Shown here piece after piece: positions 1 through 52,290 of a stretch of 64,000 nucleotides of DNA. Positions within the stretch are counted from its first letter, which is position 1. Each line of letters starts with the position of its first letter. This DNA is from a virus. Its lineage: Duplodnaviria; Heunggongvirae; Uroviricota; Caudoviricetes. The position numbers and the translations under genes are program-made. The notes below the pieces were generated by a model. It was not told the DNA's origin. It ran no database searches and worked only from the letters and a program-made list of their open reading frames with translations. Location of the stretch: the IMG/VR virus record IMGVR_UViG_2724679073_000003; one strand, 5' to 3'.

Positions 1-1349
1 GTATGCCGACACGGGAGATCCCCGGCGCAATTGCCAACTATTTCATGATAACCAGGCGTTTTTATACCCGAACAGATAAGGCTGTGATCAACAAGCTACT
101 GATAGCCGAGATCAGGGATTATTTGATTGAACAAGGACGTCTACGTTACGCAACAGTGGCAGCAGAAATGAGAAAGGAGGCACATAGAATGACCAGTAAT
201 AATTTGAATGTTAAAAAACCAGCATCTGTTGCTTCAGCTACGCCATCACCAGCTGTGAATGTTATCTCCAACACTGGAGATACAATCGACAGCCAGACGC
301 TGTTAAAGATGGTCAATGAAGCGCGTAAGTTATGTGGGGAACCAGAGGTTCGGAACAACAAATTCATCGAAAAAATACTCGACGAATTAGAAGGTGAGGA
401 CGGTTACACAAAAAGTGCAACCGTGCCGCCAGGTGGCGGTACGCCTATGGTTGTCATAACCATGACCTACAAACAAGCCCTGCGAGTTGCCGCGCGCGAG
501 TCAAAAGCGGTCCGCCGTTCGCTACATACCATGATTCAGGCATTGGAACCTATAAATGTTGAAAATCATCCTGATGAAATTCCCGTTCTGGAATGGCAGG
601 GAGTACGCGTCGTGACAACCGAGACTCTTGCTAGAGGGTATGGCACTACACCTACTCGTATTCAGCAGAACTACAATCGCAATGAAGAACGATTTGTAGA
701 GGGTAAACACTTCTTTAAAATCAAAGGAGATGAGATAAAAAGTTTGCGACTATCTTTTAGCGAGTTGCAAATTTCCCCCAAGACCAGATCCTTAATACTC
801 TGGACCGAACGCGGAGCGGCACGCATGTCTAAGATCGTAGACACAGAGCAAGCGTGGGCATTCTTTGAAAAACTGGAAGACAGCTACTTCCGGCAAAAAG
901 AACAGCAACCGGTCGCAATCCCCCAGACGCTTCCCGAAGCTCTGCGCCTGGCTGCCGAGCTGGCTGAACAAAAGCAGCTACTGGAACAGAAAACCCACCA
1001 GCTAAATCAACAGCTGGTGGCCGCAGCCCCTAAAGTCGATTTTGCCGACCGGGTATCAGCGGCTAATGGAATCCTGATCGGGAACTTTGCAAAGGTCGTT
1101 GGACTTAAGCAAAACGCCCTTTTCTCATGGTTGCGCCAGAACGGCATTCTCATGGCTTTTGGTGCGCGCAAAAACGTACCGCGCCAGCAGTACATTAACG
1201 CCGGGTATTTCACGGTGAAAGAAGTGGTGCTGGATGATGAAAATGGCTACCAGATACGGCTGACGCCCCAATTAACGGGTAAAGGCCAGCAGTGGTTAAC
1301 TCGCAAGCTACTTGATGCTGGTTTGTTAAAACCAGTAGCAATAGGTTAA
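1..1349 (+). CDS. ant: Antirepressor Ant (immI-type), 5'-truncated at window edge, KilAC-type C-terminal domain
   Basis: ORF 3..1349 open to window start; N-terminal TREIPGAIANYFMI aligns to about residue 25 of the ant copy at 50294; C-terminal ~170 aa nearly identical to that copy; lies directly upstream of kilA-repL. Confidence 0.75.
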   Translation, partial: MPTREIPGAIANYFMITRRFYTRTDKAVINKLLIAEIRDYLIEQGRLRYATVAAEMRKEAHRMTSNNLNVKKPASVASATPSPAVNVISNTGDTIDSQTLLKMVNEARKLCGEPEVRNNKFIEKILDELEGEDGYTKSATVPPGGGTPMVVITMTYKQALRVAARESKAVRRSLHTMIQALEPINVENHPDEIPVLEWQGVRVVTTETLARGYGTTPTRIQQNYNRNEERFVEGKHFFKIKGDEIKSLRLSFSELQISPKTRSLILWTERGAARMSKIVDTEQAWAFFEKLEDSYFRQKEQQPVAIPQTLPEALRLAAELAEQKQLLEQKTHQLNQQLVAAAPKVDFADRVSAANGILIGNFAKVVGLKQNALFSWLRQNGILMAFGARKNVPRQQYINAGYFTVKEVVLDDENGYQIRLTPQLTGKGQQWLTRKLLDAGLLKPVAIG

Positions 1350-1362
1350 CAAAAGAAAAAAA

Positions 1363-1386
1363 CCTGCCAGCAAACTGGCAGGTTTC
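1363..1386 (+). terminator. Rho-independent terminator after ant
   Basis: Hairpin CCTGCCAG-CAAA-CTGGCAGG followed by TTTCT. Confidence 0.55.
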
Positions 1387-1427
1387 TGAGCAGATCGTCC
1401 AACCCGATCTGGATCGAGTCAGAAAAA

Positions 1428-1444
1428 TTTGCTCTAATAAATTT
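1428..1444 (+). promoter_or_regulatory. C1 operator upstream of kilA (Op53-like)
   Basis: TTTGCTCTAATAAATTT matches 16/17 of the P1 C1 operator consensus ATTGCTCTAATAAATTT; 70 bp upstream of kilA start. Confidence 0.7.
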
Positions 1445-1513
1445 CGTTTTCTAAGTGCAAAGAATCACCATTTCGAGCTGGTGATTGAAGGTTGATGCAA
1501 ATTTGGAGAAAAA

Positions 1514-2314
1514 ATGCAACAAACATTCAATGCGGATATGAATATATCAAACCTTCATCAAAATGTCGATCCTTCAACCACTCTGCCCGTTATTTGTGGT
1601 GTTGAAATTACGACCGACCGCGCTGGCCGTTACAACCTTAATGCTCTACACAGAGCGAGCGGACTCGGTGCCCATAAAGCGCCAGCTCAATGGCTAAGAA
1701 CGCTGTCAGCAAAACAGCTCATCGAAGAGCTTGAAAAAGAAACTATGCAGAATTGCATAGTTTCGTTCGAAGGCCGTGGCGGCGGCACTTTTGCCCATGA
1801 ATTGCTCGCTGTGGAGTACGCAGGCTGGATTTCTCCCGCGTTTCGGCTGAAGGTAAACCAGACATTTATCGACTATCGAGCCGGAAGATTACAACCTGCT
1901 ATTCCGCAGAGTCTCCCTGAAGCTCTCCGTTTGGCTGCCGACCTGGCAGAGCAAAAGCAACGGCTGGAGCAAAAAATGCTTATGGATGCACCTAAAGTCG
2001 AATTCGCCGAACGCGTTGCTACCGCCAGCGGGGTTCTAATCGGCAACTATGCCAAAGTGCTCGGCCTGGGCCAAAACTATCTCTTCACCTGGTTGCGTGA
2101 TAACGGAATTCTGATCGCAACCGGTGAACGCAGGAACGTCCCCAAACAAGAATACATATCCCGTGGGTATTTCACCCTTAAAGAAACCGTGATCGATACA
2201 AGCAATGGAAGCAGGATTTCTTTCACGACTCGTATAACCGGCAAAGGTCAGCAGTGGCTGATGAAGCGATTGCTTGATGCTGGTGTGCTGGTACCTGTCG
2301 CGGCAACGCGCTAA
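1514..2314 (+). CDS. kilA: KilA (KilA-N domain plus KilAC C-terminal domain), 266 aa
   Basis: Length matches P1 KilA; C-terminal region homologous to Ant C-termini; RBS GGAGAAAAA before ATG; followed by repL. Confidence 0.85.
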   Translation: MQQTFNADMNISNLHQNVDPSTTLPVICGVEITTDRAGRYNLNALHRASGLGAHKAPAQWLRTLSAKQLIEELEKETMQNCIVSFEGRGGGTFAHELLAVEYAGWISPAFRLKVNQTFIDYRAGRLQPAIPQSLPEALRLAADLAEQKQRLEQKMLMDAPKVEFAERVATASGVLIGNYAKVLGLGQNYLFTWLRDNGILIATGERRNVPKQEYISRGYFTLKETVIDTSNGSRISFTTRITGKGQQWLMKRLLDAGVLVPVAATR

Positions 2315-2343
2315 CAGACGTAGTAAGAACCACCAGCATTGTA

Positions 2344-3189
2344 ATGCTGGCTAAAGTCACTTTCCTGAGCTGTATAACGATGAGCGATTTTACTTTTTCT
2401 GGCTATGAATTGGCCTGCTTTGTAACACACTCCGGTCTATCCCGTAGCGCCGGGCATATCCTGTCGCAATGTGCAAATCTAGCGGCAACAACCAGTGAAT
2501 ACTTCATTCACAAGCCTCACCGCCTGATCGCGGCAGAAACTGGTTATAGCCAATCAACCGTCGTTCGTGCATTCCGTGAAGCTGTAAACAAAGGAATTCT
2601 GTCTGTAGAGATTGTTATCGGCGATCACCGTGAACGTCGCGCTAACCTGTACCGGTTTACGCCATCCTTTTTGGCCTTCGCACAACAAGCCAAAAATGCG
2701 CTGATTGAAAGCAAATTAAAGATCTCTTCAGCGGCAACCAAGGTTAAAGCTGTTCTCGCTAAGACATTGGCTTTATTTAATTTTTTATCCACACCCCCAT
2801 GTCAAAATGATACCCCCTCCCCCTGTCAGGATGACGTGGCAATAAAGAATAAGAAGTCACAAGTTAAAAAAACAAAAAGATCAGTTTCCGGCGGTGCCGG
2901 AACGAGCAGACTCAAAAAATTGACTTCATGGATCGCTGAGGCAAAAGCAAAGGCTGACAATCTGCGGTTATCCAAAAAACGCGCTCAAAAACATGAGTTC
3001 AAGCAGAAAGTAGAGGCGGCAGCGCGGAAATATGCTTACCTGAAGGACAAGCGTTCTCCTGATATTGGCGGGATATCAAACCTCGATAATCTGCCGCATT
3101 GCATGACGGTAAACGAAGCTCTTAATGCGGTTTTAGCCAAAAATAAAGATAACGAACAATGGGGTATACCGGCAGGATTCAGAGGGTGA
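2344..3189 (+). CDS. repL: RepL lytic replication initiator, 281 aa (oriL expected inside)
   Basis: Position downstream of kilA, length identical to P1 RepL, basic lysine-rich C-terminal half. Confidence 0.8.
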   Translation: MLAKVTFLSCITMSDFTFSGYELACFVTHSGLSRSAGHILSQCANLAATTSEYFIHKPHRLIAAETGYSQSTVVRAFREAVNKGILSVEIVIGDHRERRANLYRFTPSFLAFAQQAKNALIESKLKISSAATKVKAVLAKTLALFNFLSTPPCQNDTPSPCQDDVAIKNKKSQVKKTKRSVSGGAGTSRLKKLTSWIAEAKAKADNLRLSKKRAQKHEFKQKVEAAARKYAYLKDKRSPDIGGISNLDNLPHCMTVNEALNAVLAKNKDNEQWGIPAGFRG

Positions 3190-3239
3190 TAGATTGCTCT
3201 AATCTGGAGTCACCTGGCGTTTTCAGTTTGAGGTCGGAG

Positions 3240-3485
3240 ATGCAATCTGATTTTTTACAGTTAGCGATCGCTTTTGCAGGATATGTTTGTATTGGCTTCT
3301 GTGTATACATGATCAGCCGAAAAATGCTTGTCGATATCGACCGCAAAGAACGAGCAGAGGAGATCTTAGTATGGATTTTCTTTGGCGCGGTCTGGCCATT
3401 AGGGATCATGTTTGCTGCAACATTTCTTCTGATGTGGATATTCACCCTTCCAGGTGATTTCTATAGAAAAAAAGCCAGACATTGA
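3240..3485 (+). CDS. Small membrane protein (two hydrophobic helices)
   Basis: RBS GAGGTCGGAG before ATG at 3240; hydrophobic stretches LAIAFAGYVCIGFCVYMI and ILVWIFFGAVWPLGIMFAATFLLMWIF. Confidence 0.45.
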   Translation: MQSDFLQLAIAFAGYVCIGFCVYMISRKMLVDIDRKERAEEILVWIFFGAVWPLGIMFAATFLLMWIFTLPGDFYRKKARH

Positions 3486-3509
3486 TACAATCGTTGCGGG
3501 TGCTTGAGG

Positions 3510-3544
3510 CTATCTGCTTCAGGCATTACCCGAAAAGCAGATAG
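3510..3544. terminator. Convergent hairpin between + and - operons
   Basis: 10-bp stem CTATCTGCTT / AAGCAGATAG with 15-nt loop. Confidence 0.45.
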
Positions 3545-3667
3545 AAGAAAGCCCCAGATAACATTACGCGTCCTGCAAGACGCTTAACATTAATCTGAGG
3601 CCATATCTATGCTTAGCATACGTAGATTAACCCTCTCCCCTTTTAAGGAGCAAGGAATTTTTTACTG

Positions 3668-4264
3668 CTATGCCGCATTTCCAATTATGGATTCAGCGAC
3701 CAGAACAACCCCATGCTTACTTCGATCTGGGTGTTCACTCCATATCTCGGATTCAGGAATACTTACCCCGTCATAGCAAACACGTTCGCCGTCAAACGGG
3801 TAATACTGAGCGGCATCGGTGTCAAGGATAAACACTTTTAGCTCGGAAGAGCGACGGGCGATGTGTTGCCAAAGAGCTTTTCCACCTTCGTATTGCTCAT
3901 TATCACTGAGCAAAACAACACCAGCTTTTGAGGCTACGGTTTCGTAAACAAAAGTAGCTAAACCGACATCCCGGACGGTTCCATCAACCACGATACCTTC
4001 AATCTGGGCAACATCGCTATCCTCCCAGAACTTCCTTACCAGTACGCCTTCAAGCAGCGGGCGACGTTGAAGTTCAAGAGTAGCGACAACCTTATGGCGC
4101 ATATCACCATCGATAATAGAAGGCGCAGCCTCTATTACAGCTGCAAATGGGGTTTTGGAATCCCATATAACCTGGTAAAGAACACCTTGGATGGTAACTC
4201 CGTCCAGGATCGAAAATCGACGAGCGACAGTACCCGGGGAGTACGACATTGGAATCACAGCCAT
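3668..4264 (-). CDS. Hypothetical protein (structural/morphogenetic block)
   Basis: ORF with RBS AGGGGGAC upstream of internal ATG at 4264; last gene of the leftward head-tail operon. Confidence 0.5.
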   Translation of the reverse strand: MAVIPMSYSPGTVARRFSILDGVTIQGVLYQVIWDSKTPFAAVIEAAPSIIDGDMRHKVVATLELQRRPLLEGVLVRKFWEDSDVAQIEGIVVDGTVRDVGLATFVYETVASKAGVVLLSDNEQYEGGKALWQHIARRSSELKVFILDTDAAQYYPFDGERVCYDGVSIPESEIWSEHPDRSKHGVVLVAESIIGNAA

Positions 4265-4435
4265 TTTAGAGTCCCCCTTTAACAGTACAGGCACAAACAG
4301 CTACCTCAATAATTGTAGTTTATTAGAACATTAATAATCTAACATAAAACTCCAGACAATGTTATCGATGCATGTTTATATAAAATAGTTATAAAAAAAG
4401 CTCCCGAAGGAGCTTTAAAATACAAGGGATGACTC

Positions 4436-9889: not shown

Positions 9890-9982
9890 CAAGGTGAAAT
9901 CGTGGCGATTTCACCTTGAAATTTTAGAGAGATTTACTTTAAAAACAGTAGGTTAATAGTGAAATTTGAATGGCGAAAGTTT
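9890..9982. other. parS: parS partition site (ParB box A heptamers ATTTCAC and box B hexamers TCGCCA)
   Basis: GTGAAATCGTGGCGATTTCAC ... TAGTGAAATTTGAATGGCGAAAG directly downstream of parB stop. Confidence 0.75.
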
Positions 9983-36080: not shown

Positions 36081-36662
36081 ATGAAAGGCGAAGTGAAAGA
36101 GCGCGGCATGATTTTTAACGATGAGATGGTCCGGGCAATTCTTGGCGGGAATAAAACACAGACTCGCAGGATTGTTGAAGAAAAATTCTATGGACGGGCA
36201 GTGGCCGCAGAGTTGCTTGCCAAGCATTGTCCATATGGTCAACCTGGCGATCGTATTTGGGTTCGCGAAACCTACCGGGTACATGGCAAAGCGACGGACG
36301 TCGCAACGCTGGTTTATCGCGCAAGCGTGCGTAACTCCTGGACAGAACAAACGCACCGGGTTCCGGTCGAGGTTTGTAATAAACCAGTATCAGAAAAGTG
36401 GACGCCATCAATTCACATGCCGCGCTGGGCATCGCGCATTCTTCTGGAAATTACCAACGTGCGCGTTGAGCGGTTGAACGATATCAGCGAATGCGATGCA
36501 AGGGCTGAGGGCGCACCAACAGAATCGACCCTCATTGGCGATAAGCATTACCCAGGTTTCCGTAGCCTATGGAAATCAATTTATGGCGAAGATAGTTGGA
36601 ACGCTAATCCCTGGGTGTGGGTAATCGAGTTTGAGCGTATTCAGGGGGCAACCAGTGAGTAA
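36081..36662 (+). CDS. ASCH (PUA-like) domain protein
   Basis: MVRAILGGNKTQTRRI ... PGDRIWVRE ... HMPRWASRILLEI. Confidence 0.55.
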   Translation: MKGEVKERGMIFNDEMVRAILGGNKTQTRRIVEEKFYGRAVAAELLAKHCPYGQPGDRIWVRETYRVHGKATDVATLVYRASVRNSWTEQTHRVPVEVCNKPVSEKWTPSIHMPRWASRILLEITNVRVERLNDISECDARAEGAPTESTLIGDKHYPGFRSLWKSIYGEDSWNANPWVWVIEFERIQGATSE

Positions 36663-37299
36663 CCGTTTTTACATGATGTGCTTGCGTGAAACTGTGGGTA
36701 ATAACGCCTCATTCCATTGCCATAACGGCAATGGTTACAGTTCTGATATCGATCGCGCTCATATTTACACGCTGGAAGAAGCCCAAAAAGCCTGGAATTG
36801 TGGGCGAGATATCGATCAGCCTGTTTGTGCCGATAGTGTGGATGCAATGGCTGTGTGGCACGTTGATTGCCAGTACATCCCTACAGAAAGCCTGATTGAG
36901 TCAGATTGCACTGAGTATGTGGCCTACAAAAAAGGTAGCTGGAACGGCAACGATGTTTACTGGCTTCAACACGGTGGATTGCCAACAGATGACTTCAGTA
37001 AAGCGACCATCTTTAGCGTCGTCAACAAAAACGAACCAGGAATAGTTTGGTTGCCATTTTCCATTGCTGATGCAGCAAAGCGCCGGACGTTCAATATCAA
37101 TAACTTTAACCGCAGAACAATGGTTCAGGGCGCAGGGTTGGTCATGCCTGACTGGTTGAAAGAGCAGAACAGAAGAAAGAAGTCGCGAAGCGGGAAGGTG
37201 CGTTGGAATTGTCCGCATTGCGGAAAAATAACCTGGCAGTACAGCCCATATGATTTTGAAGGCTGTAGTGATTACAACTGTGAAGGATGGCGAGAATGA
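36654..37299 (+). CDS. Cys-rich protein with C-terminal zinc ribbon
   Basis: NCPHCGKITWQYSPYDFEGCSDYNCEGW; start uncertain (GTG 36654 or ATG 36673). Confidence 0.45.
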
Positions 37300-38162
37300 C
37301 AATTGACTATCAGGTACTGCGTGAGGCGGCAGAAAAGGCAACACCAGACGAATGGGTCGCATTTATTTCGACGGATACTGGTACTTATGCGGTGCACACG
37401 CCCGGTGATGAACGATGTGAAGACGTTATCAAATGGACCGGCTTTGATGGACAGAAAAATGCAGAGAACAACGCTCGTTATGTTGCCGCGTTCAACCCAA
37501 AGGTTGCACTGGAGCTGCTTGGTGAAATTAAGCGCCTGGAGGACACAAATATTGATGCTATGTGTCGAATTGCAGAGCTAGAGACTAATCTCGCGGCGCT
37601 GGCAGCGGAGAATGCGGCGCTGAAGGCCGGGGCTATGTATTTCTCATATGGCTCTGAATTTAGTTTCGAGTGTCACAAAACTGCTGAGGAGGCTATCGCT
37701 GCTGCTGAGGCTGCAATTGACGACTATAGAGGCGATGCTTGCGATGGATGGAGCGAAGAGGTCGAAAGCATTTGCTGGGGGGTAATTATTCAGCAGGCAA
37801 CCAAGGTCGGTGAACGCAAGAAGAGGAAATGCGACAGAGTATCACCATGGATTGAAAGAGTTTGTGATTATGAGCTTCGACCTAATGTCGAAACCCCAGC
37901 CACCGATGCTTTCCTGTCTGAAATTCGTGCGGAAGCACGCAACGAGGGGATTAACTATACCGCCAGCCGTCTTGCTGCTGCGTTCAATCACGGATTTATC
38001 AATAAGTCTTTGCGTGAAGTTTTCGACGTTACACGCATGATTTTGTCAGCGAAAGAAGAGTTGGCTAATGAAGCGCATCCGATTGATGGCCTGTCTGGTG
38101 AATATGCGGAGAAATCCCTTGAAGAATGGGCGGAACAAATTCGCAAAGGAAGCAGCCAGTGA
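37287..38162 (+). CDS. Paralog family member 1 (IDYQ-LRE-AEK N-terminus, PATDAFL and RKG C-terminus)
   Basis: Shares N-terminal TIDYQVLREAAEKATPDEW and C-terminal PATDAFLSEIRAE ... AEQIRKGSSQ with the two downstream genes. Confidence 0.55.
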   Translation: MARMTIDYQVLREAAEKATPDEWVAFISTDTGTYAVHTPGDERCEDVIKWTGFDGQKNAENNARYVAAFNPKVALELLGEIKRLEDTNIDAMCRIAELETNLAALAAENAALKAGAMYFSYGSEFSFECHKTAEEAIAAAEAAIDDYRGDACDGWSEEVESICWGVIIQQATKVGERKKRKCDRVSPWIERVCDYELRPNVETPATDAFLSEIRAEARNEGINYTASRLAAAFNHGFINKSLREVFDVTRMILSAKEELANEAHPIDGLSGEYAEKSLEEWAEQIRKGSSQ

Positions 38163-38449
38163 ATATCGACACGACAATAACGATCGATACGCTCCTAAAT
38201 ACCGGTCTGGCACTTCTCGGTTGGCTTTACATCATGTCCCGCACATGGCGATGGCTGGGTTCCATTTTCCTAAAACAGTGGAAAAAACGGCGCAAACAGG
38301 AACTACGCCAGAAGGCATTAGAAGCGTTCTATGACGCATTTGAGCTTAGCCGCATTGAACCAGGTACAACAGCCAGGATAGCGACAAAAGGCGACCTGAT
38401 GATAGTGATGTTCCGACAGGAGAGAGCAGAGAAAGGGGAATCAGCATGA
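38158..38449 (+). CDS. Small membrane protein
   Basis: GTG start overlapping upstream stop; TM LLNTGLALLGWLYIM then basic stretch. Confidence 0.4.
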
Positions 38450-39180
38450 AATTTTCCAAATTTTCTGAGTTGGTGAATCGTATTTTGTCCAACAACCACA
38501 GCCATCGTCGCGATATGGATGTAACAATCGTTGTTCATTCGCCTGGCAGCATTGGTTCAACACCTTCAGTTGAGGTTCAGTCAATTCACGCTGGTTTTGA
38601 TTGGGATTCCGGGAAAGTGCTTATTTTCCCATCACAGCCACTGACCACGCTAACACCAGAACAGATTACTGATATCACTGATAGTGTGCGCAAAGGTCAG
38701 TCTTGGCACGCATATCAGGAATACAAGAAGCATCAAGAGCAGTTGGAAAAATTGTCGATTGAACTGGATGCCGCAAAACAGCGCATTGCAGAGCTGGAGG
38801 GTAATCGCACGGCGCTGGCAGTCGAGAATGAGCTGGCTCGTAAGGCAGTTCAGGCATTCTGCGATGTTGTTGGCGACAACACCGAGGTTATCGCTGAGGT
38901 GGTTGGGCGAGATGGCGTTCTGGTTATTTTGGAGGCCATGAAGGCAACAGGAAATATGCCAGCCACCGATGCTTTCCTGGCTGAAGTGCGGGCGCAGGGC
39001 GTGGATGCTGCTATAGAAGCTGCAAAAAATCTGGTGGCCCAAGAATATGAGTATAAGGATTTCAAAGCGGCGCAGAGTGATTGCTGTATGCACCCTGGTT
39101 CAGACCTGGTAGGGAAGGTTGAAATGACTGAGTGGTTAGTTGACTTTGCTGCCCAGCTTCGCAAAGGAGGCAACCAGTGA
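38446..39180 (+). CDS. Paralog family member 2
   Basis: Contains PATDAFLAEVRAQG ... AAQLRKGGNQ and coiled-coil LEKLSIELDAAKQRIAELEGNRTALAVENE matching member 1. Confidence 0.55.
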   Translation: MKFSKFSELVNRILSNNHSHRRDMDVTIVVHSPGSIGSTPSVEVQSIHAGFDWDSGKVLIFPSQPLTTLTPEQITDITDSVRKGQSWHAYQEYKKHQEQLEKLSIELDAAKQRIAELEGNRTALAVENELARKAVQAFCDVVGDNTEVIAEVVGRDGVLVILEAMKATGNMPATDAFLAEVRAQGVDAAIEAAKNLVAQEYEYKDFKAAQSDCCMHPGSDLVGKVEMTEWLVDFAAQLRKGGNQ

Positions 39181-39821
39181 GCAAGATTGATTATCAAAAG
39201 CTTCGTGAAATCGCTGAAAAAACAAAAATTGCTGGTGAAGCACCTGTAATGCCCTTCGATCAGCGAATTAATGCGCTTAACGATTTTATGAAGCACTTTT
39301 CGCCAGATATCGCGCTGGCACTGCTGGATGAACTGGAAAGAAACCAGCAATACATCAAATCACGCGACCAGGAGAACGAGGAAATTGCGCTAACGGTAGG
39401 GAAGCTGCGTGTTGAGCTGGAAGGCAAAGACAGCAAAATAGCCAATCTTACCGCCGAACGCGATGCTCTTCGTGAAGGTGAGATGGGCGACGCTAGGCAT
39501 AGCAACACACGGGCCGCAGCTGATATCTACTTCCAACTGGTCGAGGAGTGCGAAATTCCTGCTGGCGGATCTCTGGTCGAGTACGTTGACGATATGCGCG
39601 AGAAGCTGGAAGCCGCAGAGAAGCGCATTGCAGAGTTAGAAAGTGGTTCTCAGGCACAAAAGTTAGTTGAAGCAATCATTGTTGCGATAGAAAACGAACA
39701 GGAAAGGCTTTTTGATGAAGATTACCTAATGGATTCGAAAGAATGCATTGACGTAATTCGTGAAGAAGTAAAGCGATGGAATGATTCCCGTGCCGCTGGC
39801 ATTCGCATCAAAGGAGAGTGA
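39177..39821 (+). CDS. Paralog family member 3
   Basis: N-terminal KIDYQKLREIAEKTKIAGEAP and ALALLDELERNQ coiled coil parallel to member 1. Confidence 0.55.
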   Translation: MSKIDYQKLREIAEKTKIAGEAPVMPFDQRINALNDFMKHFSPDIALALLDELERNQQYIKSRDQENEEIALTVGKLRVELEGKDSKIANLTAERDALREGEMGDARHSNTRAAADIYFQLVEECEIPAGGSLVEYVDDMREKLEAAEKRIAELESGSQAQKLVEAIIVAIENEQERLFDEDYLMDSKECIDVIREEVKRWNDSRAAGIRIKGE

Positions 39822-39823
39822 TA

Positions 39824-40086
39824 TGGCAACTTTAACAAAAAAAGAACGGGCATGGTTGAACGAATTACAGGACGTTCTTGATCGCTGCCCATCACCGAAA
39901 AAAATTGGTTTTTACACCATTGGCGATAAAAGCATTTACCTGTATGACCTGCGCCGCATGGATGAAATCATGGAGGCTCTTGATAATCGTTCGTCGATGG
40001 ATTGGTGTGTTGCTGTCCATGATATGAATGCCGGATTTGATGAAAAGATTTTATTCCCTTCATCAGTTGAAAGCACAGCAGGATAA
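39824..40086 (+). CDS. Hypothetical protein
   Basis: ORF beginning MATLTKKERAWLNELQDVL. Confidence 0.45.
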
Positions 40087-40122
40087 GGACTAACACATGA
40101 CAACATGGGAAAGGAAAGTGAT

Positions 40123-40638
40123 ATGGCGTTAACACACCACGAACTCTGTCAGATTGCGTACAAGTTCCTTAAGCGCAACGGGTTCAAGGTTTGCTTTCAT
40201 GACCGCTTTGTTGCTGTAACCAGTACCGGAGAACAGCCAGATGCTATGGGATTCAGAAATTCAGCATCATGCCTGATAGAGGCGAAGTGTTCTCGTGCTG
40301 ACTTGTTGGCAGATAGAAAAAAGCGTTTCCGTAAAAATCCCTCACTTGGCATGGGCGACTGGCGATTCTTTATTAGTGAGCCGGAAATTATTTCAGTTGA
40401 GGATTTACCTCCCGGCTGGGGATTACTTCACGTTGTTAACGGAAGAGTACGGAAAGTACATGGATGGCCCAGGGGTAATTGCTGTTGGGGTAATCCTGAC
40501 GATAAGCCATTTACTGGGAATAAGCAGGTTGAATGCGATTACATGTTATCTGCATTAAGGCGCATGGAGCTAAGAGGACACCTTAATGAAATATATGACG
40601 GTGTAATTGTTAATAAGAAAGAAGGAAACGCGGCATGA
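40123..40638 (+). CDS. PD-(D/E)xK nuclease-like protein
   Basis: GEQPDAMGF ... CLIEAKCS (D ... E-x-K arrangement); RBS GGAAAGGAAAG before ATG 40123. Confidence 0.45.
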   Translation: MALTHHELCQIAYKFLKRNGFKVCFHDRFVAVTSTGEQPDAMGFRNSASCLIEAKCSRADLLADRKKRFRKNPSLGMGDWRFFISEPEIISVEDLPPGWGLLHVVNGRVRKVHGWPRGNCCWGNPDDKPFTGNKQVECDYMLSALRRMELRGHLNEIYDGVIVNKKEGNAA

Positions 40639-41438
40639 TCACTATTACCAATAAGAAACAGTATCCCAGCGAGCAATATCTTAATGAGCTGATCACCAAC
40701 ATAGAGTTTGCTGCAAGGGCACCAGTTGAAGTCGTGAGAGCAATGGCAGCAGAGCTACAGAAGCGGCGCGAAGCTGATAGCGCAGAACCAGTTGCTTATA
40801 TTTTCAAACATCCGGCCGGGAAATTATTCTGGGCTTTAACGGATGAAAGCAATAAAGATCAATCGGACGTTATTCCTGTTTATGCCGCCCCTCCAGTGCC
40901 AGTAGTACCTGCTGCATTACCTGAGAACGACGATGAGGACGGGCATGACATTGATTATCTTGAGCCATCTGAAGTTTACTCGCTTGGGCGAATAGCTGGC
41001 TGGAACGCCTGCCGTGCTGCCATGCTTCATGGTGCCGAACCTGTAAGCCAAACTTACAAGTTGCCTCCCCTGTCATCCAGAGAAGTAAACGACGCGGCAT
41101 GGAAATTACACAACATGCTGACTGAACACGGCCCTCTAAATGGGTGTCAGTTCAACAATTTGAAAGAGTGCTTCTATGAGGCATTAAAGGTCGCAATGCG
41201 CAACTATCCGGTAACTCCGGATGGTTGGATAAGCTGTAGTGAGCGAATGCCGGATACCAAAACAGCCGTTCTTGTTGCCGTGGAGTTTGACAGGAAAGGT
41301 GACTGGCGAATGAAATGGGCGACTTACATCCCGGGGCATCCTGACGCTAATGATGGGTGGATAATTCCTGGTGCGTCGTGGAAACCGTCACACTGGATGC
41401 GGCTACCAGAACCGCCGCAGGAGGTTAACCGTGGCTAA
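40635..41438 (+). CDS. DUF551-like phage protein
   Basis: C-terminal DGWISCSERMPD ... VLVAVEF ... W pattern. Confidence 0.5.
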   Translation: MITITNKKQYPSEQYLNELITNIEFAARAPVEVVRAMAAELQKRREADSAEPVAYIFKHPAGKLFWALTDESNKDQSDVIPVYAAPPVPVVPAALPENDDEDGHDIDYLEPSEVYSLGRIAGWNACRAAMLHGAEPVSQTYKLPPLSSREVNDAAWKLHNMLTEHGPLNGCQFNNLKECFYEALKVAMRNYPVTPDGWISCSERMPDTKTAVLVAVEFDRKGDWRMKWATYIPGHPDANDGWIIPGASWKPSHWMRLPEPPQEVNRG

Positions 41439-41712
41439 CCTGCAACTAGCCGTTAAAGGTGAATACTTCGATGCCATGATTCGTGGAGAGAAAACGGAAG
41501 AGTATCGCCTGTGTAATGACTACTGGAATAAGCGAATTATGTTCCGGGAGTATGACCGCCTGATTATCACAAAGGGATATCCGAAGCGCGACGATTCCAG
41601 TCGCAGAATAGACGTCCCGTATAACGGATATGAAATCAAGACAATCACACATCCGCACTTCGGTGATAAACCGGTAAAGGTGTACGCGATAAAGGTGAAT
41701 ATCAATGGCTAA
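41431..41712 (+). CDS. ASCH-like domain protein
   Basis: GTG start with RBS GCAGGAGG; VKGEYFDAMIRGEKTEEYRL motif. Confidence 0.45.
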   Translation: MANLQLAVKGEYFDAMIRGEKTEEYRLCNDYWNKRIMFREYDRLIITKGYPKRDDSSRRIDVPYNGYEIKTITHPHFGDKPVKVYAIKVNING

Positions 41713-42121
41713 ATTTCAAAGAGCTATTATTTTTCTGGCTATGTTATCAGCCAGTCATTTATCCCACGCGTCAGTTATTGCCGCTGGAGCGGCGGCAACA
41801 GCAGCGACCACGGCGGCAGTAAATGCTTCTATCGCCAGCGAGCAAGCGCGGCGTGCTGCAACCAATGCTTCCGCAAACACCACCACGGTATCAGCCACAC
41901 AATCAAAACCGAATATAGGCTTTGTTACTTGCGGAAAGAGGAATAGCGAAATGGTTGGTTCTCTTGGTTGTGTAATGTGGCAAGAGGACGATAGGCCTGA
42001 AATCCCGTGGAACTCATGGCCTGGTTACATTCTTGGTAAGAAGATACCCACCAGCTATGAAGTAAATGCTATTTCATTCGACCAATATAACGGTGTTGCA
42101 ACGGTGTATTTTCTGTATTAA
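41705..42121 (+). CDS. Secreted protein with signal peptide
   Basis: MAKFQRAIIFLAMLSASHLSHA signal-like N-terminus then Ala/Thr-rich region. Confidence 0.5.
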   Translation: MAKFQRAIIFLAMLSASHLSHASVIAAGAAATAATTAAVNASIASEQARRAATNASANTTTVSATQSKPNIGFVTCGKRNSEMVGSLGCVMWQEDDRPEIPWNSWPGYILGKKIPTSYEVNAISFDQYNGVATVYFLY

Positions 42122-47059: not shown

Positions 47060-48253
47060 GTGACCTGGGACGATCACAAGAAGAATTTTGCTCGCCTGGC
47101 GCGAGATGGTGGTTACACCATCGCACAGTATGCCGCCGAGTTTAATCTTAACCCTAATACCGCACGTCGTTATCTCCGTGCCTTCAAAGAAGACACCAGG
47201 ACAGCGGACAGCCGCAAGCCAAATAAGCCAGTCAGGAAGCCACTAAAAAGCATGATCATTGATCACTCTAATGATCAACATGCAGGTGATCATATTGCAG
47301 CTGAAATAGCTGAAAAACAAAGAGTTAATGCTGTTGTCAGTGCCGCAGTCGAGAACGCTAAGCGCCAAAATAAGCGCATAAATGATCGTTCTGATGATCA
47401 TGACGTGATCACCCGCGCCCACCGTACCTTACGTGATCGCCTGGAACGCGACACCCTGGATGATGATGGTGAACGCTTTGAATTCGAAGCTGGCGATTAC
47501 CTGATAGATAACGTTGAAGCGCGGAAGGCCGCTCGCGCTATGTTGCGTCGGTCCGGGGCCGATGTTCTGGAAACCACTCTTCTGGAAAAGTCTCTTTCTC
47601 ATCTCCTTATGCTGGAGAACGCCAGGGATACGTGTATTCGCCTGGTGCAGGAAATGCACGAGCAGCAAAAAGACGATGATGAAGGTACTCCGCCTGAATA
47701 CCGTATCGCGAGCATGCTAAACAGCTGTTCCGCGCAGATAAGCAGCCTGATCAACACCATTTACAGCATCCGGAATAACTATCGAAAAGAAAGCCGGGAG
47801 GCGGAAAAGCACGCTTTGTCTATGGGGCAAGCTGGCATTGTTAAGCTGGCATACGAACGAAAGCGTGAAAATAACTGGTCAGTGCTGGAAGCAGCTGAAT
47901 TCATCGAGGCGCATGGCGGGAAAGTGCCGCCCCTGATGCTGGAGCAAATCAAAGCCGATCTGCGTGCTCCGAAGACCAATACCGATGATGAGGAAAGGCA
48001 AACAGCCGTCGGTGGCCCTTCTCTTGAAGATCTGGACAAAGTTGCGCGAGAACGGGCCGCCAACCGCCGCGCCGATGCCGCATTGTGGATTGAGCAGCGT
48101 AGGGAAGAAATCGCCGATATCGTTGATACAGGCGGTTATGGAGATGTTGATACTGAAGGTGTATCAAACGAACCATGGCTGGAACAAGACCTGGACGAAG
48201 ACGAGGAGGAAGACGAAGAAGTTACCCGCAAGCTATACGGGGATGATGATTAA
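47060..48253 (+). CDS. pacA: Terminase small subunit PacA, 397 aa
   Basis: GTG start with RBS AAGGAAG; length equals P1 PacA; contains pac repeats; acidic C-terminus. Confidence 0.85.
47252..47412 (+). other. pac cleavage site: clustered TGATCA/G hexamers with GATC Dam sites inside pacA
   Basis: CATGATCATTGATCACTCTAATGATCAACATGCAGGTGATCAT ... AATGATCGTTCTGATGATCATGACGTGATCAC. Confidence 0.75.
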
Positions 48254-49737
48254 TGGCCAGAAGTTGCGTAACGGATCCACGTTGGCGCGAGCTGGTGGCG
48301 CTATATCGTTATGACTGGATTGCGGCCGCTGATGTTTTGTTCGGCAAAACACCTACCTGGCAGCAGGATCTGATTATTGAGTCTGTGCAGGAACAGGGTA
48401 GCAAGACATCTGTTTCGTCTGGCCACGGTACCGGGAAATCAGACATGACTTCTATCATGATCATGTTGTTCATAATCATGTATCCCGGTGCCCGAGCCAT
48501 TATCGTTGCGAACAAAATTCAGCAGGTAATGACCGGTATATTCAAGTACATCAAGATAAACTGGGCTACTGCCACCAGCCGTTTTCCATGGCTTGCTGAT
48601 TATTTTGTTCTGACAGAAACCGCTTTCTATGAGGTTACTGGTAAAGGTGTATGGACTGTAGTACCGAAGGGCTTTCGTCTGGGAAGTGAAGAAGCTCTCG
48701 CCGGTGAACACGCAGATCATCTTCTGTATATTATCGATGAAGCCTCCGGTGTCAGTGATAGAGCTTTCGGTATCATCACCGGTGCTCTTACCGGACAGGA
48801 TAACCGCATCTTATTACTGTCACAGCCTACACGCCCAAGCGGCTATTTCTACGATACTCACCATAAACTGGCCAAGCGTCCTGGTAACCCTGATGGCGTT
48901 TATACGGCGATCACGCTTAACAGTGAGGAATCACCGCTGGTAACGCCAGCATTTATCAAAATGAAGCTGGCGGAGTACGGCGGGCGTGATAACCCTATGT
49001 ACATGATTAAGGTACGCGGACTATTCCCTAAATCACAGGATGGCTTCCTTCTTGGACGTGATGAGGTTGAACGTGCGACGCGGCGGAAAGTCAAGATTGC
49101 CAAAGGATGGGGCTGGCTTGCATGTGTGGACGTTGCTGGTGGTACGGGACGGGATAAGTCCGTTATCAATATCATGATGGTGTCCGGCCAGAGAAATAAA
49201 CGCCGTGTAATCAACTATCGAATGCTGGAATACACAGACGTTACAGAAACGCAGCTTGCCGCCAAAATTTTCGCAGAATGTAATCCTGAGCGATTCCCAA
49301 ATATCACCATAGCGATAGACGGCGATGGGCTGGGTAAAGCAACGGCGGATCTGATGTACGAGTATTATGGTATTACCGTACAGCGTATACGCTGGGGTAA
49401 AAAGATGCATAGTCGTGAAGATAAGAGCCTGTACTTTGATAAACGTGCTTATGCCAACGTTCAAGCCGCAGAGGCCGTAAAATCTGGTCGTATGAGACTG
49501 GATAAGGGTAATGAAACTATTGAGGAAGCGTCGAAAATCCCTGTAGGGATTAACTCCGCAGGTCAATGGAAGGTGATGAGTAAGGAGGATATGAAGAAAA
49601 AACTCAACCTGCACTCACCAGACCATTGGGATACATATTGTTTCGCTATGCTGGCGGATTATGTTCCCCAGGATGAAGTGCTTAGCGTCGAAGACGAAGC
49701 GCAGGTTGATGAAGCTCTGGCATGGCTTAATGAATGA
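48253..49737 (+). CDS. pacB: Terminase large subunit PacB, 494 aa
   Basis: ATGA-coupled to pacA; length equals P1 PacB; Walker A-like SGHGTGKS. Confidence 0.88.
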
Positions 49738-49740: not shown

Positions 49741-49757
49741 TTTGCTCTAATAAATTG
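49741..49757 (+). promoter_or_regulatory. C1 operator (Op51-like) heading immI-like cassette
   Basis: TTTGCTCTAATAAATTG 15/17. Confidence 0.65.
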
Positions 49758-49895
49758 TGTTTTTTAACTGCCGATGTTACATTGAACCTGACCTCTTGCG
49801 CCTTGAGGCATTTTCGGTTTATGCTTATCAGGCACCTCATTAAAACGGGTGCCGGGATTGGCCTCCCGCTTAAGTCTAAGGCGATACAGACGCCG

Positions 49896-49939
49896 CTCGC
49901 GTCTTTTTTTGTATCGGCGTACACGCACACCTCTACAAT
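49896..49939 (+). promoter_or_regulatory. Sigma70-like promoter directly upstream of c4-like RNA
   Basis: TTGTAT-N19-TACAAT. Confidence 0.4.
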
Positions 49940-49940
49940 G

Positions 49941-50015
49941 GTGGGCTGTATGGGGCTACCTTCGGGTAGGCTGGTTACCTTGGACGCCAGTAAGGCCAAC
50001 TCCGTACAGTCCACC
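49941..50015 (+). ncRNA. c4-like antisense RNA candidate (about 75 nt)
   Basis: Terminal stem GGTGGGCTGTATGG / CCGTACAGTCCACC enclosing UUCG-loop hairpin; CCTTGGACG complementary (one G-U) to the icd RBS region CGTCTAAGG. Confidence 0.45.
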
Positions 50016-50075
50016 GCCAGCAAGATTGGTCTCTTCTGCGGTGGTTACATACCAACGTCTAAGGAGGCTGCCAAT

Positions 50076-50297
50076 ATGGCTACTATCCCTACCCCAACTC
50101 ATCCTGAATTTATCTGGCGCTTTTACTCCTGCCAAAAACGTCACTATCACTTCGTTATTGCACCGACAGAAGATGAGGCTCGCTCTCAGCTTCCGGATGC
50201 TCCCTGCATTTTCTCCGCCCGTTTTTCCACTGATTTGCGCAATTCTCTCAGTTACTGGTGCCTCCCTGTAAACGCTTCTGCTCAGGAGGGACTATGA
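50076..50297 (+). CDS. icd: Icd-like small protein, 73 aa, translationally coupled to ant
   Basis: RBS AAGGAGG before ATG 50076; stop overlaps ant start (ATGA). Confidence 0.6.
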   Translation: MATIPTPTHPEFIWRFYSCQKRHYHFVIAPTEDEARSQLPDAPCIFSARFSTDLRNSLSYWCLPVNASAQEGL

Positions 50298-51406
50298 GAA
50301 CGTCATTAGTCACCCGTGAAGAGATGATCGAGGCAATTGAACAGCATACCGCCTGTATCAGTACCAGGGATATACCAGGCGTTATTGCCAACTACTTCAT
50401 GATCACCAAACAACTTTACCGGAGAAAGGACAAAAACGCGGTTCACCGCATTCTGCTAACCGATATCCGTGAATACCTGCTCGAACAGGGTCATCTGAAT
50501 TACGCAACCGTCGCAGCCGAAGCACGCAAGGAGGCACACAGAATGAAAGCAACTAACGTTAAATCAGAAAAAATTTATGCACCTTCAGTTCAGGAATCGG
50601 AACTGGTGGTTGTTCAGAATCAGCCGGATGAAATTCCCGTTCTGGAGTGGCAGGGGGTGCGTGTAGTGACAACCGAGACTCTTGCTAGAGGGTATGGGAC
50701 CGAAACTAATAACATCAAAGTTAACTATACGCGTAATGCTGATCGCTTTGAGGAAGGTAAACATTACTTTCTACTAACTGGTTCAAAATTAAAAGAATTG
50801 AAGGACAAGGTTACTCAAAGTAACTTAGTCGCACCGCGAGCAAAGCACCTCACTCTCTGGACGGAACGCGGCGCAGCCCGCCACGCTAAAATGCTCGAAA
50901 CCGATCAGGCATGGGCATTCTTTGAAAAACTGGAAGACAGCTACTTCCGGCAAAAAGAACAGCAACCGGTTGCAATCCCCCAGACGCTTCCAGAAGCTCT
51001 GCGCCTGGCTGCCGAACTGGCTGAACAAAAGCAGCTTCTGGAACAGAAAGCCCACCAGCTAAATCAGCAGCTGGTGGCCGCCGCTCCTAAAGTCGATTTT
51101 GCCGACCGGGTATCAGTAGCTAAAGGGATCCTGATTGGGAATTTTGCAAAGGTTGTTGGACTTAAGCAAAACGCGCTGTTTGTCTGGTTACGGGAGAACG
51201 GCATCCTGATAGCGTCCGGTGGACGTAAAAATGTGCCGTTCCAGCAGTACATCAACGCGGGGTATTTCACGGTGAAAGAAGTGGTACTGGATGATGAAGA
51301 TGGCTACCAGATACGGTTGACGCCTCAATTAACGGGTAAAGGCCAGCAGTGGTTGACGCGTAAACTGCTCGATGCTGGCTTGTTAAAACCGGTGGCGGCT
51401 GAATAA
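50294..51406 (+). CDS. ant: Antirepressor Ant, second copy, KilAC C-terminal domain
   Basis: RBS AGGAGGG before ATG 50294; C-terminal 170 aa nearly identical to the ant at the window start. Confidence 0.8.
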   Translation: MRTSLVTREEMIEAIEQHTACISTRDIPGVIANYFMITKQLYRRKDKNAVHRILLTDIREYLLEQGHLNYATVAAEARKEAHRMKATNVKSEKIYAPSVQESELVVVQNQPDEIPVLEWQGVRVVTTETLARGYGTETNNIKVNYTRNADRFEEGKHYFLLTGSKLKELKDKVTQSNLVAPRAKHLTLWTERGAARHAKMLETDQAWAFFEKLEDSYFRQKEQQPVAIPQTLPEALRLAAELAEQKQLLEQKAHQLNQQLVAAAPKVDFADRVSVAKGILIGNFAKVVGLKQNALFVWLRENGILIASGGRKNVPFQQYINAGYFTVKEVVLDDEDGYQIRLTPQLTGKGQQWLTRKLLDAGLLKPVAAE

Positions 51407-51438: not shown

Positions 51439-52290
51439 TTATTGCGCGCTTTCGGGGTTGTCGTTTACTGGCTGCCCCTTCTTGGTTTTACGGCTGCGCG
51501 TAACTGATGCGGCTGATTTGACCTTTTTCTCTTCGCGAGTGATGGCAATTTGTTTTTTTACATTTTCAATATCTGCCAGGCGATATATTTTTGCTTGCGG
51601 CCAGCGGTCGCAGATGATCGGTTCTATGGAGTCATAAAGGCTAAATTTTGCTTTTTCGAATTCACCGTTGATGATAATTCCATCACGGAGAGTTTCATCG
51701 CAGATAAACACGCCACACAGCGGCACATGGTAACTAACTGATTTACCGTTATTGTAGTTAGGACTACTGGAGATGTAGTGAACGCGCAGCATTGTTTCGC
51801 TAAAGCCGTGTACGCGCATACGGAATTTTTCATCCTCCGGGTACTGCTTCATTAGCTCTTTTGTTGCTTCCAGGTTCTCTATGTATTTCGCACTGTGCTC
51901 ATTGAACCCCGCGCTTTTTTGGATGCGAATGTCCTTATCAATCAGATGAATAATGCGGCCAGCGGTCATGTTGACGCTGTTCACAGCTTCTGTCTGATAA
52001 GTTGTAACCTTGCGCACACCGCGAAGGATGTTAGGCACTGGATATAAAATAGTCTTTGGGATATTGAGGTCTGGGTACTGTTCCAGTTCCCGCGCCATTA
52101 AAGTCCATTTATCAATTTCAGCCTGAATGCTGTCAGTTTCTTTGAACGGTAGAACGACAACCGGGCGTACAGGACGACCGTCGCTGGCTGTATCAACGTG
52201 TTGGGCGCGTGCAACAGCTTTTTTTAGAAAGAGATCCCTGAAGCTGACGAACTCCTGGTACAGTTGTTCGCCGTAGACATAATTTATCAT
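51439..52290 (-). CDS. c1: C1 repressor of lysis, 283 aa
   Basis: Begins MINYVYGEQLYQEFVSFRDLFLKK..., recognised as P1 C1; same length. Confidence 0.95.
   Translation of the reverse strand: MINYVYGEQLYQEFVSFRDLFLKKAVARAQHVDTASDGRPVRPVVVLPFKETDSIQAEIDKWTLMARELEQYPDLNIPKTILYPVPNILRGVRKVTTYQTEAVNSVNMTAGRIIHLIDKDIRIQKSAGFNEHSAKYIENLEATKELMKQYPEDEKFRMRVHGFSETMLRVHYISSSPNYNNGKSVSYHVPLCGVFICDETLRDGIIINGEFEKAKFSLYDSIEPIICDRWPQAKIYRLADIENVKKQIAITREEKKVKSAASVTRSRKTKKGQPVNDNPESAQ

What the first reader, a model, noticed from the sequence alone, without database searches (positions are those of the whole stretch)
841..1349. Near-identical ~500-bp direct repeat shared by the two ant 3' ends
On visual alignment the large majority of positions in 901..1349 match 50961..51406, both on the + strand. 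Direct repeats of this size in a circular replicon are substrates for RecA-mediated deletion or inversion and could generate subgenomic circles separating the lytic replicon from the plasmid-maintenance and immC functions.
Basis: seen in the sequence. Interest (0 to 1): 0.4.

Follow-up and report, generated by a model that had tools for sequence, protein, structure and literature searches.

The report
Shared tail of two antirepressor genes
The roughly 500-bp repeat is real, but it is just the conserved end of two related antirepressor genes in a P1-like phage-plasmid, an arrangement found in hundreds of sequenced plasmids and not shown to break the genome apart.

Summary
The window is a P1-like phage-plasmid. 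The repeat exists: 853-1340 aligns without gaps to 50910-51397 (offset 50,057, direct orientation) at 88.9% identity. Weaker homology extends back to 535/50589. It is not near-identical: dS is 0.49 and dN is 0.039.

Both copies are the linker plus KilAC (Pfam ANT) coding ends of two antirepressor genes.
- Copy A is ant1 of the canonical immI locus, upstream of kilA and repL.
- Copy B ends a complete second immI-type cassette inserted between pacB and c1: C1 operator, isrK-like leader, C4 antisense RNA, icd-like gene, ant.

That insertion is already reported for RCS47 and pTZ20_1P, and 268 PLSDB plasmids carry it.

Across 87 loci, including those from the window's relatives, the last 345 bp is strictly locus-specific. 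This rules out recent duplication or homogenisation. Past crossovers lie upstream of about 999.

Direct repeats cannot invert. The plasmid replicon (rep, parAB) lies between the repeats together with repL, so only immC would be separated. Neither predicted circle looks viable. No deletion junction was found in 72,556 plasmids or 5,426 complete E. coli genomes.

The finding is ordinary and of low interest.

The parts
1..1349 (+). ant1 of the canonical immI locus. The window start cuts off roughly the first 20 codons. This is the long-form allele: P1 Ant1-type 5' part, then ORF6N, then linker and KilAC.
   Evidence: ORF 3-1349. Pfam ORF6N covers aa 195-278 and ANT covers aa 336-437. 1-523 is 89.6% and 999-3203 is 98.7% identical to P1 ant1-kilA-repL; 524-998 is absent from P1. 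The same allele occurs in 19 PLSDB plasmids.
853..1340 (+). Repeat copy A: high-identity core, encoding the linker plus the KilAC domain.
   Evidence: Ungapped, 88.9% identical to 50910-51397. dS 0.49, dN 0.039.
50910..51397 (+). Repeat copy B: high-identity core.
535..852 (+). Weaker homology upstream of copy A (ORF6N domain region), paired with 50589-50909.
   Evidence: D3 at 75% identity. Third-codon-position identity is about 0.4 and dS is 1.5.
1008..1313 (+). KilAC (Pfam ANT, PF03374) domain of ant1.
   Evidence: E = 1.2e-30.
51065..51370 (+). KilAC (Pfam ANT) domain of the second ant.
   Evidence: E = 2.4e-31.
1514..2314 (+). kilA, the third KilAC-domain gene in the window (KilA-N plus ANT). 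It is only about 65% identical to the ant copies at the DNA level.
   Evidence: Pfam; blastn 64.7% over 309 bp.
49741..49757 (+). C1 operator-like site immediately after the pacB stop codon, at the head of the second immI cassette.
   Evidence: TTTGCTCTAATAAATTG, 2 mismatches to the consensus. The window has 14 such sites against 0.38 expected by chance. It is a member of repeat family D2.
49832..49909 (+). isrK-like leader RNA element. It contains candidate a1 (49858-49864) and b1 (49874-49881) sites.
   Evidence: Rfam RF01394, 60.8 bits against a gathering score of 50. Complementarity to the C4 loops was read from the sequence.
49934..50021 (+). C4 antisense RNA gene of the second cassette.
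   Evidence: Rfam RF01695, 75.9 bits against a gathering score of 45.
50076..50297 (+). icd-like gene (73 aa), overlapping the ant start codon by ATGA. Candidate b2 site at 50058-50065 covers its ribosome-binding site; candidate a2 site at 50026-50032.
   Evidence: NCBIfam NF033153, E = 2.6e-13. 79% amino-acid identity to P1 Icd. Sequence read.
50294..51406 (+). Second antirepressor gene (370 aa; ORF6N plus KilAC).
   Evidence: Pfam. Homologues are annotated as ant in RCS47 and as KilAC antirepressor in plasmids.
51439..52290 (-). c1 repressor, convergent with the second ant.
   Evidence: NCBIfam NF041318, 609 bits.
48253..49737 (+). pacB, the left flank of the second cassette.
   Evidence: 92.7% identical to the P1 region containing pacB.
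9981..14386 (-). Plasmid partition and replication genes (ParB, ParA, a T5orf172-domain ORF, Rep3-type initiator). They lie between the two repeat copies.
   Evidence: Pfam.

Best explanation
The repeat is not an element in its own right. It is the homologous coding end (linker plus KilAC/ANT domain) of two paralogous immI-type antirepressor genes in a P1-like phage-plasmid. Copy A ends ant1 of the canonical immI locus, upstream of kilA and repL. Copy B ends the ant gene of a complete second immI-type cassette inserted between pacB and c1: C1 operator, isrK-like leader, its own C4 antisense RNA with matching a/b target sites, an icd-like gene, then ant. Two things keep the DNA similar. The first is strong purifying selection on the protein. 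The second is older mosaic exchange among ant alleles: the conserved block around 855-1097 and the icd/N-terminal region appear to act as homologous arms, and the variable middle domains are swapped between them. The last 345 bp stays linked to its own flank. As a recombination substrate the pair is weak, and the two product circles would be dead ends. One 50-kb circle would carry both replicons but no c1. The remainder would carry c1 but no replicon. Steps shown here: the paralogy, the domain content, the cassette anatomy, the mosaic structure, the locus-specific 3' block, and the absence of junctions in databases. Steps inferred: that both proteins act on C1, that the second C4 confers a second immunity specificity, and that the deletion circles are inviable.
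For: The repeat is real and confined to coding sequence. Both genes have ORF6N plus ANT domains and kilA has a third ANT domain. dN/dS is about 0.08 in the repeat. dS is mosaic: 0.24, 1.44 and 0.60 in three sub-blocks, against about 1.8 upstream. The cassette has C4 and isrK Rfam hits above their gathering scores, an Icd-like gene, a C1 operator, and a1/b1 and a2/b2 sites complementary to the C4 loops. P1 has only about 25 bp between pacB and c1, so the cassette is an insertion relative to P1. It is present in RCS47, JL22 and 673R5 and in 268 PLSDB records, and the literature notes it (PMC6906374). The 3' 345 bp is at least 97.9% A-type in 9 of 9 kilA-flanked loci and 92.5-99.7% B-type in 55 of 55 c1-flanked loci. 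Alleles with a B-type 5' part and an A-type 3' part sit at the canonical locus in full-size plasmids. A P1-type cassette with a B-type 3' end sits next to c1 in the closed plasmid p88_1577-1. This shows past crossovers inside or just upstream of the repeat.
Against: No experiment here shows that either Ant binds C1 or that the second C4 is expressed. The a2 and b2 pairings each need one G.U wobble. No sigma-70-like promoter was called by the simple scan upstream of the second C4. The very high conservation of the 855-998 block across all loci could instead reflect a nucleotide-level function that I did not identify.
Confidence: 0.88

Rival explanations
1. The repeats are an active RecA substrate that regularly resolves the prophage into two subgenomic circles, with biological consequences.
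For: The repeats are in direct orientation, 488 bp long, with exact runs of 59, 31, 29 and 26 bp. Historical crossovers within ant genes are evident. One draft IMG/VR contig of 45.5 kb joins the immI left flank to c1 through an ant gene.
Against: The copies differ by 11%. No deletion junction was found in 72,556 plasmids or 5,426 complete E. coli genomes. The J1-type joins that were found are all in plasmids of 87 kb or more, as an allelic variant at the canonical locus. The draft contig is explained by a 2.1-kb, 93% identical repeat seen in the closed plasmid p88_1577-1, which would collapse in a short-read assembly. Both replicons lie on the circle without c1 and the other circle has no replicon, so I infer neither would persist. 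The two-copy arrangement is stable in hundreds of closed plasmids.
Confidence: 0.07
2. The similarity reflects a recent duplication within this genome, or ongoing gene conversion between the two loci (concerted evolution).
For: Third-codon-position identity jumps from about 0.4 to about 0.9 at position 850. The 855-1097 block has dS of only 0.24.
Against: dS across the repeat is 0.49 and across the KilAC block 0.69. The long-form ant1 allele is 99.3% identical in plasmids that mostly show no second copy. The 3' block is locus-specific in all 64 flank-typed loci, including contigs that carry both copies (L014 with L074, L031 with L072).
Confidence: 0.04
3. Part of the repeat (about 855-1020) is conserved because it carries a nucleotide-level signal, for example the perfect 10-bp-stem hairpin at 995-1020 and 51052-51077.
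For: The hairpin is present in both copies, with a change only in the loop. The 855-998 block is 90-100% identical in all loci regardless of position. The homology breakpoint between P1 and the long form (999) falls inside the hairpin.
Against: The region is protein-coding under strong purifying selection (dN 0.016). The terminator-like calls are simple consensus matches on the non-coding strand. No covariation test was possible because the stem is invariant.
Confidence: 0.04

Closest known systems
Phage P1 immI operon (Op51-c4-icd-ant1/ant2) followed by kilA-repL
   Same: Copy A is this locus: 97-99% DNA identity from 999 onward and 89.6% for 1-523. The second cassette has the same logic: C1 operator, C4 RNA flanked by a/b target sites, a 73-aa Icd translationally overlapped with ant, and an Ant with a KilAC C-terminus.
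   Different: The window's ant1 carries an extra 475-bp segment (524-998, with an ORF6N domain) that P1 lacks. The second cassette has an isrK-like leader instead of the Rfam c4-a1b1 leader. Its C4 loop sequences differ from P1's. It sits between pacB and c1, where P1 has only about 25 bp.
The ant gene inserted between pacB and c1 in P1-like phage-plasmids RCS47 and pTZ20_1P
   Same: It has the same position and the same gene. RCS47 matches 100% of 49600-51500 at 89.9% identity, annotated pacB / ant / c1. The insertion is described in PMC6906374.
   Different: The window's C4 region differs from that of RCS47 (alignment A2). The papers I read mention only 'two short ORFs and ant'. They do not mention the C4 RNA, the operator or the repeat shared with ant1.
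KilAC/ANT-domain antirepressor families with shuffled N-terminal modules (KilA-N, ORF6N and others)
   Same: Three genes in the window share ANT (PF03374) combined with different N-terminal domains. Natural alleles recombine these modules.
   Different: Nothing differs in kind. This is one instance of that pattern. The comparison to the published domain-shuffling literature is from my own knowledge and was not retrieved here.
IsrK / antirepressor module of Salmonella Gifsy-1-type prophages
   Same: An isrK-family RNA lies upstream of an antirepressor gene (Rfam RF01394). Twenty-three IMG/VR loci carry the B-type ant outside the P1 pacB-c1 and kilA contexts.
   Different: I did not compare the proteins or the regulation with the Salmonella system. 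The resemblance rests on the Rfam hit and on my recollection of the literature.

Membership tests
Pfam ANT / KilAC domain (PF03374) | Profile match above the gathering score in the region encoded by each repeat copy | tested here: met
   Copy A scores 106.5 bits and copy B 108.7 bits, against a cutoff of 25.3.
Pfam ORF6N domain (PF10543) | Profile match above the gathering score upstream of KilAC | tested here: met
   74.6 and 73.1 bits, against a cutoff of 27.8. P1 Ant1 lacks this domain.
P1 immI-type immunity cassette | C4 antisense RNA gene upstream of icd-ant | tested here: met
   RF01695, 75.9 bits against 45, full length, at 49934-50021.
P1 immI-type immunity cassette | Icd-like ORF translationally coupled to ant | tested here: met
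   NF033153, 49.8 bits against 25. 79% identity to P1 Icd. ATGA overlap at 50294-50297.
P1 immI-type immunity cassette | C1 operator at the promoter | tested here: met
   A 15-of-17 match to the operator consensus at 49741-49757. The window has 14 sites against 0.38 expected. Binding was not tested.
P1 immI-type immunity cassette | a/b target sites complementary to the C4 loops, with b2 covering the icd ribosome-binding site | tested here: inconclusive
   a1 TTGGCCT pairs perfectly. a2 TTGGTCT and b1/b2 GTCTAAGG each pair with one G.U wobble. b2 overlaps the ribosome-binding site TAAGGAGG. This was found by inspection only.
P1 immI-type immunity cassette | Ant protein inactivates the C1 repressor | not testable with these tools
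   This needs a binding or induction assay.
RecA-dependent direct-repeat deletion substrate | Direct orientation, with exact-identity runs above the minimal processing segment (about 25-30 bp, from established knowledge) | tested here: met
   Offset of 50,057 on the same strand, with runs of 59, 31, 29 and 26 bp.
RecA-dependent direct-repeat deletion substrate | Deletion or resolution junctions observable in sequenced molecules | tested here: not met
   The J1 and J2 chimeric queries and the L087 junction query found no product of about 50 or 45 kb in PLSDB or in complete E. coli genomes. The one draft contig is ambiguous.

The most novel reading that the evidence does not exclude
P1-like phage-plasmids may carry arrays of up to four c4-icd-ant cassettes at different loci: immI, pacB/c1, near cre, and between dbn and gene 5. 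The conserved icd/N-terminal region and the linker block at the start of the KilAC repeat could serve as shared crossover arms that let cassettes and their C4 specificities move between loci and between co-resident elements. This would build combinatorial superinfection-immunity repertoires.
Probability: 0.3. Interest if true: 0.45.

Novelty: already known. Interest (0 to 1): 0.15.

Why it matters
It matters little for the original claim. The repeat is a by-product of paralogy, and the two-ant arrangement is common and already annotated. The useful results are three corrections. The second ant belongs to a complete, C1- and C4-controlled immI-type cassette with its own antisense specificity. 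The replicon layout makes the proposed subgenomic circles dead ends. Assemblers can collapse these repeats into chimeric contigs, which is relevant to anyone typing P1-like plasmids from short reads. If multi-cassette immunity arrays prove functional, they would bear on heteroimmunity and coexistence among P1-like elements that carry resistance genes.

Tried and rejected
1. Deletion-junction search with J1 (antB 5' + antA 3' + kilA). It found 25 PLSDB records, but the 15 listed are all 87-268 kb and one that I inspected (NZ_CP023961.1) is an allelic variant at the canonical immI locus, not a 50-kb circle.
2. Deletion-junction search with J2 (antA 5' + antB 3' + c1). No record spans the junction. 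The 81% hits are ordinary B loci.
3. CP057803.1 (48.9 kb) looked like a candidate circle by size, but its ant is flanked normally by pacB and c1.
4. phi456 has only the 3' end of the second ant. This is explained by an IS1-associated deletion, not by homologous exchange.
5. IMG/VR locus L087/L093 joins the immI left flank to c1. I followed it up and it is best explained by collapse of a 2.1-kb repeat that exists in the closed plasmid p88_1577-1.
6. NCBIfam gave no family for the three KilAC proteins.
7. I had guessed a Rha-like domain in the P1-type middle of Ant1. Pfam gave no hit, so I dropped the label.
8. The promoter scan did not call a promoter for the second cassette.
9. Two literature searches found only brief mentions of the pacB-c1 ant insertion.

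Full report
**Observation**

The repeat is real. MAFFT alignment of 841-1400 against 50900-51460 gives 91% mean column identity, and the similarity ends at the two stop codons. The repeat finder returns 798-1097 / 50855-51154 at 89% and 535-716 / 50589-50770 at 75%. blastn gives 79.9% over 822 bp (535-1339 vs 50589-51396), E = 0.

The core is ungapped. 853-1340 pairs with 50910-51397 at an offset of 50,057 on the same strand, with 54 mismatches in 488 bp (88.9%). The longest exact runs are 59, 31, 29 and 26 bp. Chance cannot produce this.

"Near-identical" is too strong.

**Where the window comes from**

The window is a P1-like phage-plasmid (Punavirus).
- Bases 1-3000 match P1 ant1-kilA-repL at 97-98.5%.
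- Mapping against an annotated P1 genome shows collinearity from ant1 through kilA, repL, the head genes, ban, phd/doc, lpa and pacAB to c1 and coi.
- cre lies at 53444-54475.
- The window starts about 20 codons into ant1.

**What the two copies are**

Copy A is the 3' end of ant1 (ORF 3-1349). Copy B is the 3' end of a second ant gene (50294-51406). Both proteins have an ORF6N domain followed by a KilAC/ANT domain. KilA (1514-2314) carries a third ANT domain, and P1 Ant1 has ANT only.

The second ant is not a lone gene. Between the pacB stop (49737) and c1 (51439-52290, minus strand; NF041318) lies a full immI-type cassette:
- a C1 operator-like site at 49741-49757. The window has 14 operator matches against 0.38 expected;
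- an isrK-family leader at 49832-49909 and a C4 antisense RNA at 49934-50021, both above their Rfam gathering scores;
- a 73-aa Icd-like gene at 50076-50297 (NF033153; 79% identical to P1 Icd), which overlaps the ant start by ATGA.

The C4 loops (CCTTGGAC and AAGGCCAA) have complementary sites upstream of C4: TTGGCCT at 49858 and GTCTAAGG at 49874. They also have sites downstream: TTGGTCT at 50026 and GTCTAAGG at 50058. The last of these covers the icd ribosome-binding site. This mirrors the a1/b1 and a2/b2 layout annotated in P1, but with different sequences. I infer a different antisense specificity.

P1 itself has only about 25 bp between pacB and c1, so the cassette is an insertion relative to P1.

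**How common and how well known it is**

- The cassette occurs in phages RCS47, JL22 and vB_EcoM-673R5.
- It occurs in full in 268 PLSDB plasmids, where PGAP annotates an Icd-like protein and a KilAC antirepressor.
- Venturini et al. [quoted passage not shown] RCS47)".

The arrangement is therefore known. The C4 and operator content of the insertion and the repeat it shares with ant1 were not mentioned in the papers I could read.

**History of the similarity**

Third-codon-position identity is about 0.35-0.55 upstream of position 850. It then jumps to 0.8-0.95.

| Region (window coordinates) | dS | dN |
|---|---|---|
| Whole repeat, 855-1343 | 0.49 | 0.039 |
| 855-1097 | 0.24 | 0.016 |
| 1098-1199 | 1.44 | 0.111 |
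| 1203-1343 | 0.60 | 0.029 |
| Homologous part upstream of 850 | about 1.8 | 0.343 |

All values are Nei-Gojobori estimates. They show that the copies are old paralogues under strong purifying selection (dN/dS about 0.08) and that they have a mosaic history. They are not a recent duplicate.

Relative to P1, the window's ant1 has an extra segment (524-998) holding the ORF6N domain and the first part of the repeat. That long-form allele is 98-99.3% identical in 19 PLSDB plasmids, and most of those show no second copy. So it was not created by conversion from the resident copy B.

A multi-sequence comparison was extended to 80 IMG/VR loci and 7 database loci. It shows two things.
- The last 345 bp is locus-specific. 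It is at least 97.9% A-type and at most 87.7% B-type in 9 of 9 copies followed by kilA. It is 92.5-99.7% B-type and at most 90.3% A-type in 55 of 55 copies followed by c1. This includes contigs that carry both copies about 49.8 kb apart (L014 with L074).
- The parts upstream of about 999 are shuffled. NZ_CP023961.1 has a B-type leader, icd and ant 5' part joined to an A-type 3' block at the canonical locus, in a 96.8-kb plasmid. L078-type alleles put a different middle domain at the pacB-c1 locus.

The repeat region has therefore served as a crossover zone over evolutionary time. The two loci are not being homogenised.

**The recombination model**

Direct repeats can resolve a circle into two, but they cannot invert the intervening segment.

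In the window, ParB (9981-10982), ParA (10999-12195) and the Rep3-type initiator (13466-14386) lie between the repeats, together with kilA and repL. The 50,057-bp product would therefore hold both replicons, phd/doc and pacAB. It would lack c1. As far as P1 gene order applies, it would also lack the lysis and tail genes. The complementary product would hold c1, coi and cre but no replicon.

From P1 biology (my own knowledge), the first product should derepress kilA, repL and the late functions and kill the host. The second should be diluted out.

Homeologous exchange at 11% divergence is strongly reduced in mismatch-repair-proficient E. coli. This is established knowledge and was not measured here.

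Database tests:
- The chimeric query J1 (antB 5' + antA 3' + kilA) hit 25 plasmids. The 15 listed are all 87 kb or larger, and the one I inspected is an allelic variant at the canonical locus.
- The chimeric query J2 (antA 5' + antB 3' + c1) hit none across the junction.

One IMG/VR draft contig (45.5 kb; L087/L093) does join the immI left flank through a P1-type ant to a B-type 3' end and c1. The same junction sequence occurs in one closed plasmid, p88_1577-1 (95.8 kb). There it lies between pacB and c1 as a nested cassette (isrK-C4-icd'-simA'-a1b1-C4-icd-ant). It forms a 2,141-bp, 92.9% identical direct repeat with that plasmid's own immI locus. A short-read assembly would readily collapse such a repeat, so the draft contig is not evidence for a deletion circle.

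Hundreds of closed full-size plasmids keep both copies.

**Verdict**

The feature is the expected DNA footprint of two paralogous antirepressor genes in a known, widespread variant of P1-like phage-plasmids. Novelty is "already known" and interest is low.

The most novel reading still open is that these cassettes form mobile, multi-locus immunity arrays. Up to four occur in p88_1577-1, and they would exchange through the conserved arms.

Noticed in passing
window 3204-4393 (sok RNA at 3498-3672): The P1 rlfA/rlfB region downstream of repL has no match in the window. In its place is a segment with a full-length sok antitoxin RNA (Rfam RF01794, 94.7 bits), which suggests a hok/sok-type toxin-antitoxin module. 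The same element occurs in NZ_CP023961.1.
   Followed up: partly
window 9926-14547: The partition and replication region shows no megablast-level similarity to P1 parB-parA-repA. It encodes ParB, ParA, a T5orf172-domain ORF (12364-13173) inserted between parA and rep, and a Rep3-type initiator. This is a different replicon and partition type from P1.
   Followed up: partly
window 36137-44454: An 8.3-kb segment is absent from P1 and lies between the pmgT-side block and phd. It has two Ead/Ea22-like paralogues (37287-38162 and 39177-39821), which account for the 49-nt repeat D4, plus a DUF551 protein and an S24 peptidase-like ORF.
   Followed up: partly
window 20839-21082 and 22526-22598: Rfam calls four tRNA genes, one of them weak (20919-21002, 41.9 bits). 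The annotated P1 record used for comparison lists three.
   Followed up: no
window 995-1020 and 51052-51077: A perfect 10-bp-stem hairpin (CCACCAGCT...AGCTGGTGG) is conserved inside both repeat copies, with a change only in the loop. The homology breakpoint between P1 ant1 and the long-form ant1 (999) falls within it.
   Followed up: no
L097 8175-10667 and 14338-15801; L098 13726-14981 (NZ_CP074805.1, p88_1577-1): This closed 95.8-kb P1-like plasmid shows four matching places, three of which I located as icd-ant cassettes. Its pacB-c1 locus holds two C4 genes in tandem: a B-type leader, then a nested P1-type immI with a simA fragment. Another cassette lies inverted near cre.
   Followed up: partly
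L093 (IMGVR_UViG_2534681832_000025, 45.5 kb); also L086 and L055: This draft contig joins the canonical immI left flank to c1 through one ant gene, and its ends appear to overlap near coi/cre. It is probably a repeat-collapse chimera rather than a real 45-kb circle. The same genome has icd-ant cassettes between dbn and gene 5 (L086) and near cre (L055).
   Followed up: partly
window 49934-50021 vs L002 and L007 (alignment A2): The C4 RNA stem and loop sequences of the window's second cassette differ from those of RCS47's cassette at the same locus and from those of NZ_CP023961.1. This suggests several antisense specificities among otherwise similar cassettes.
   Followed up: partly
L001 (phage phi456, OR339795.1 69899-71014): An IS1 element abuts a 3' remnant of the second ant next to c1. 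pacA, pacB and the 5' part of the cassette are missing, and pdcB is shortened. This looks like an IS-mediated deletion in a record described as a complete phage genome.
   Followed up: no
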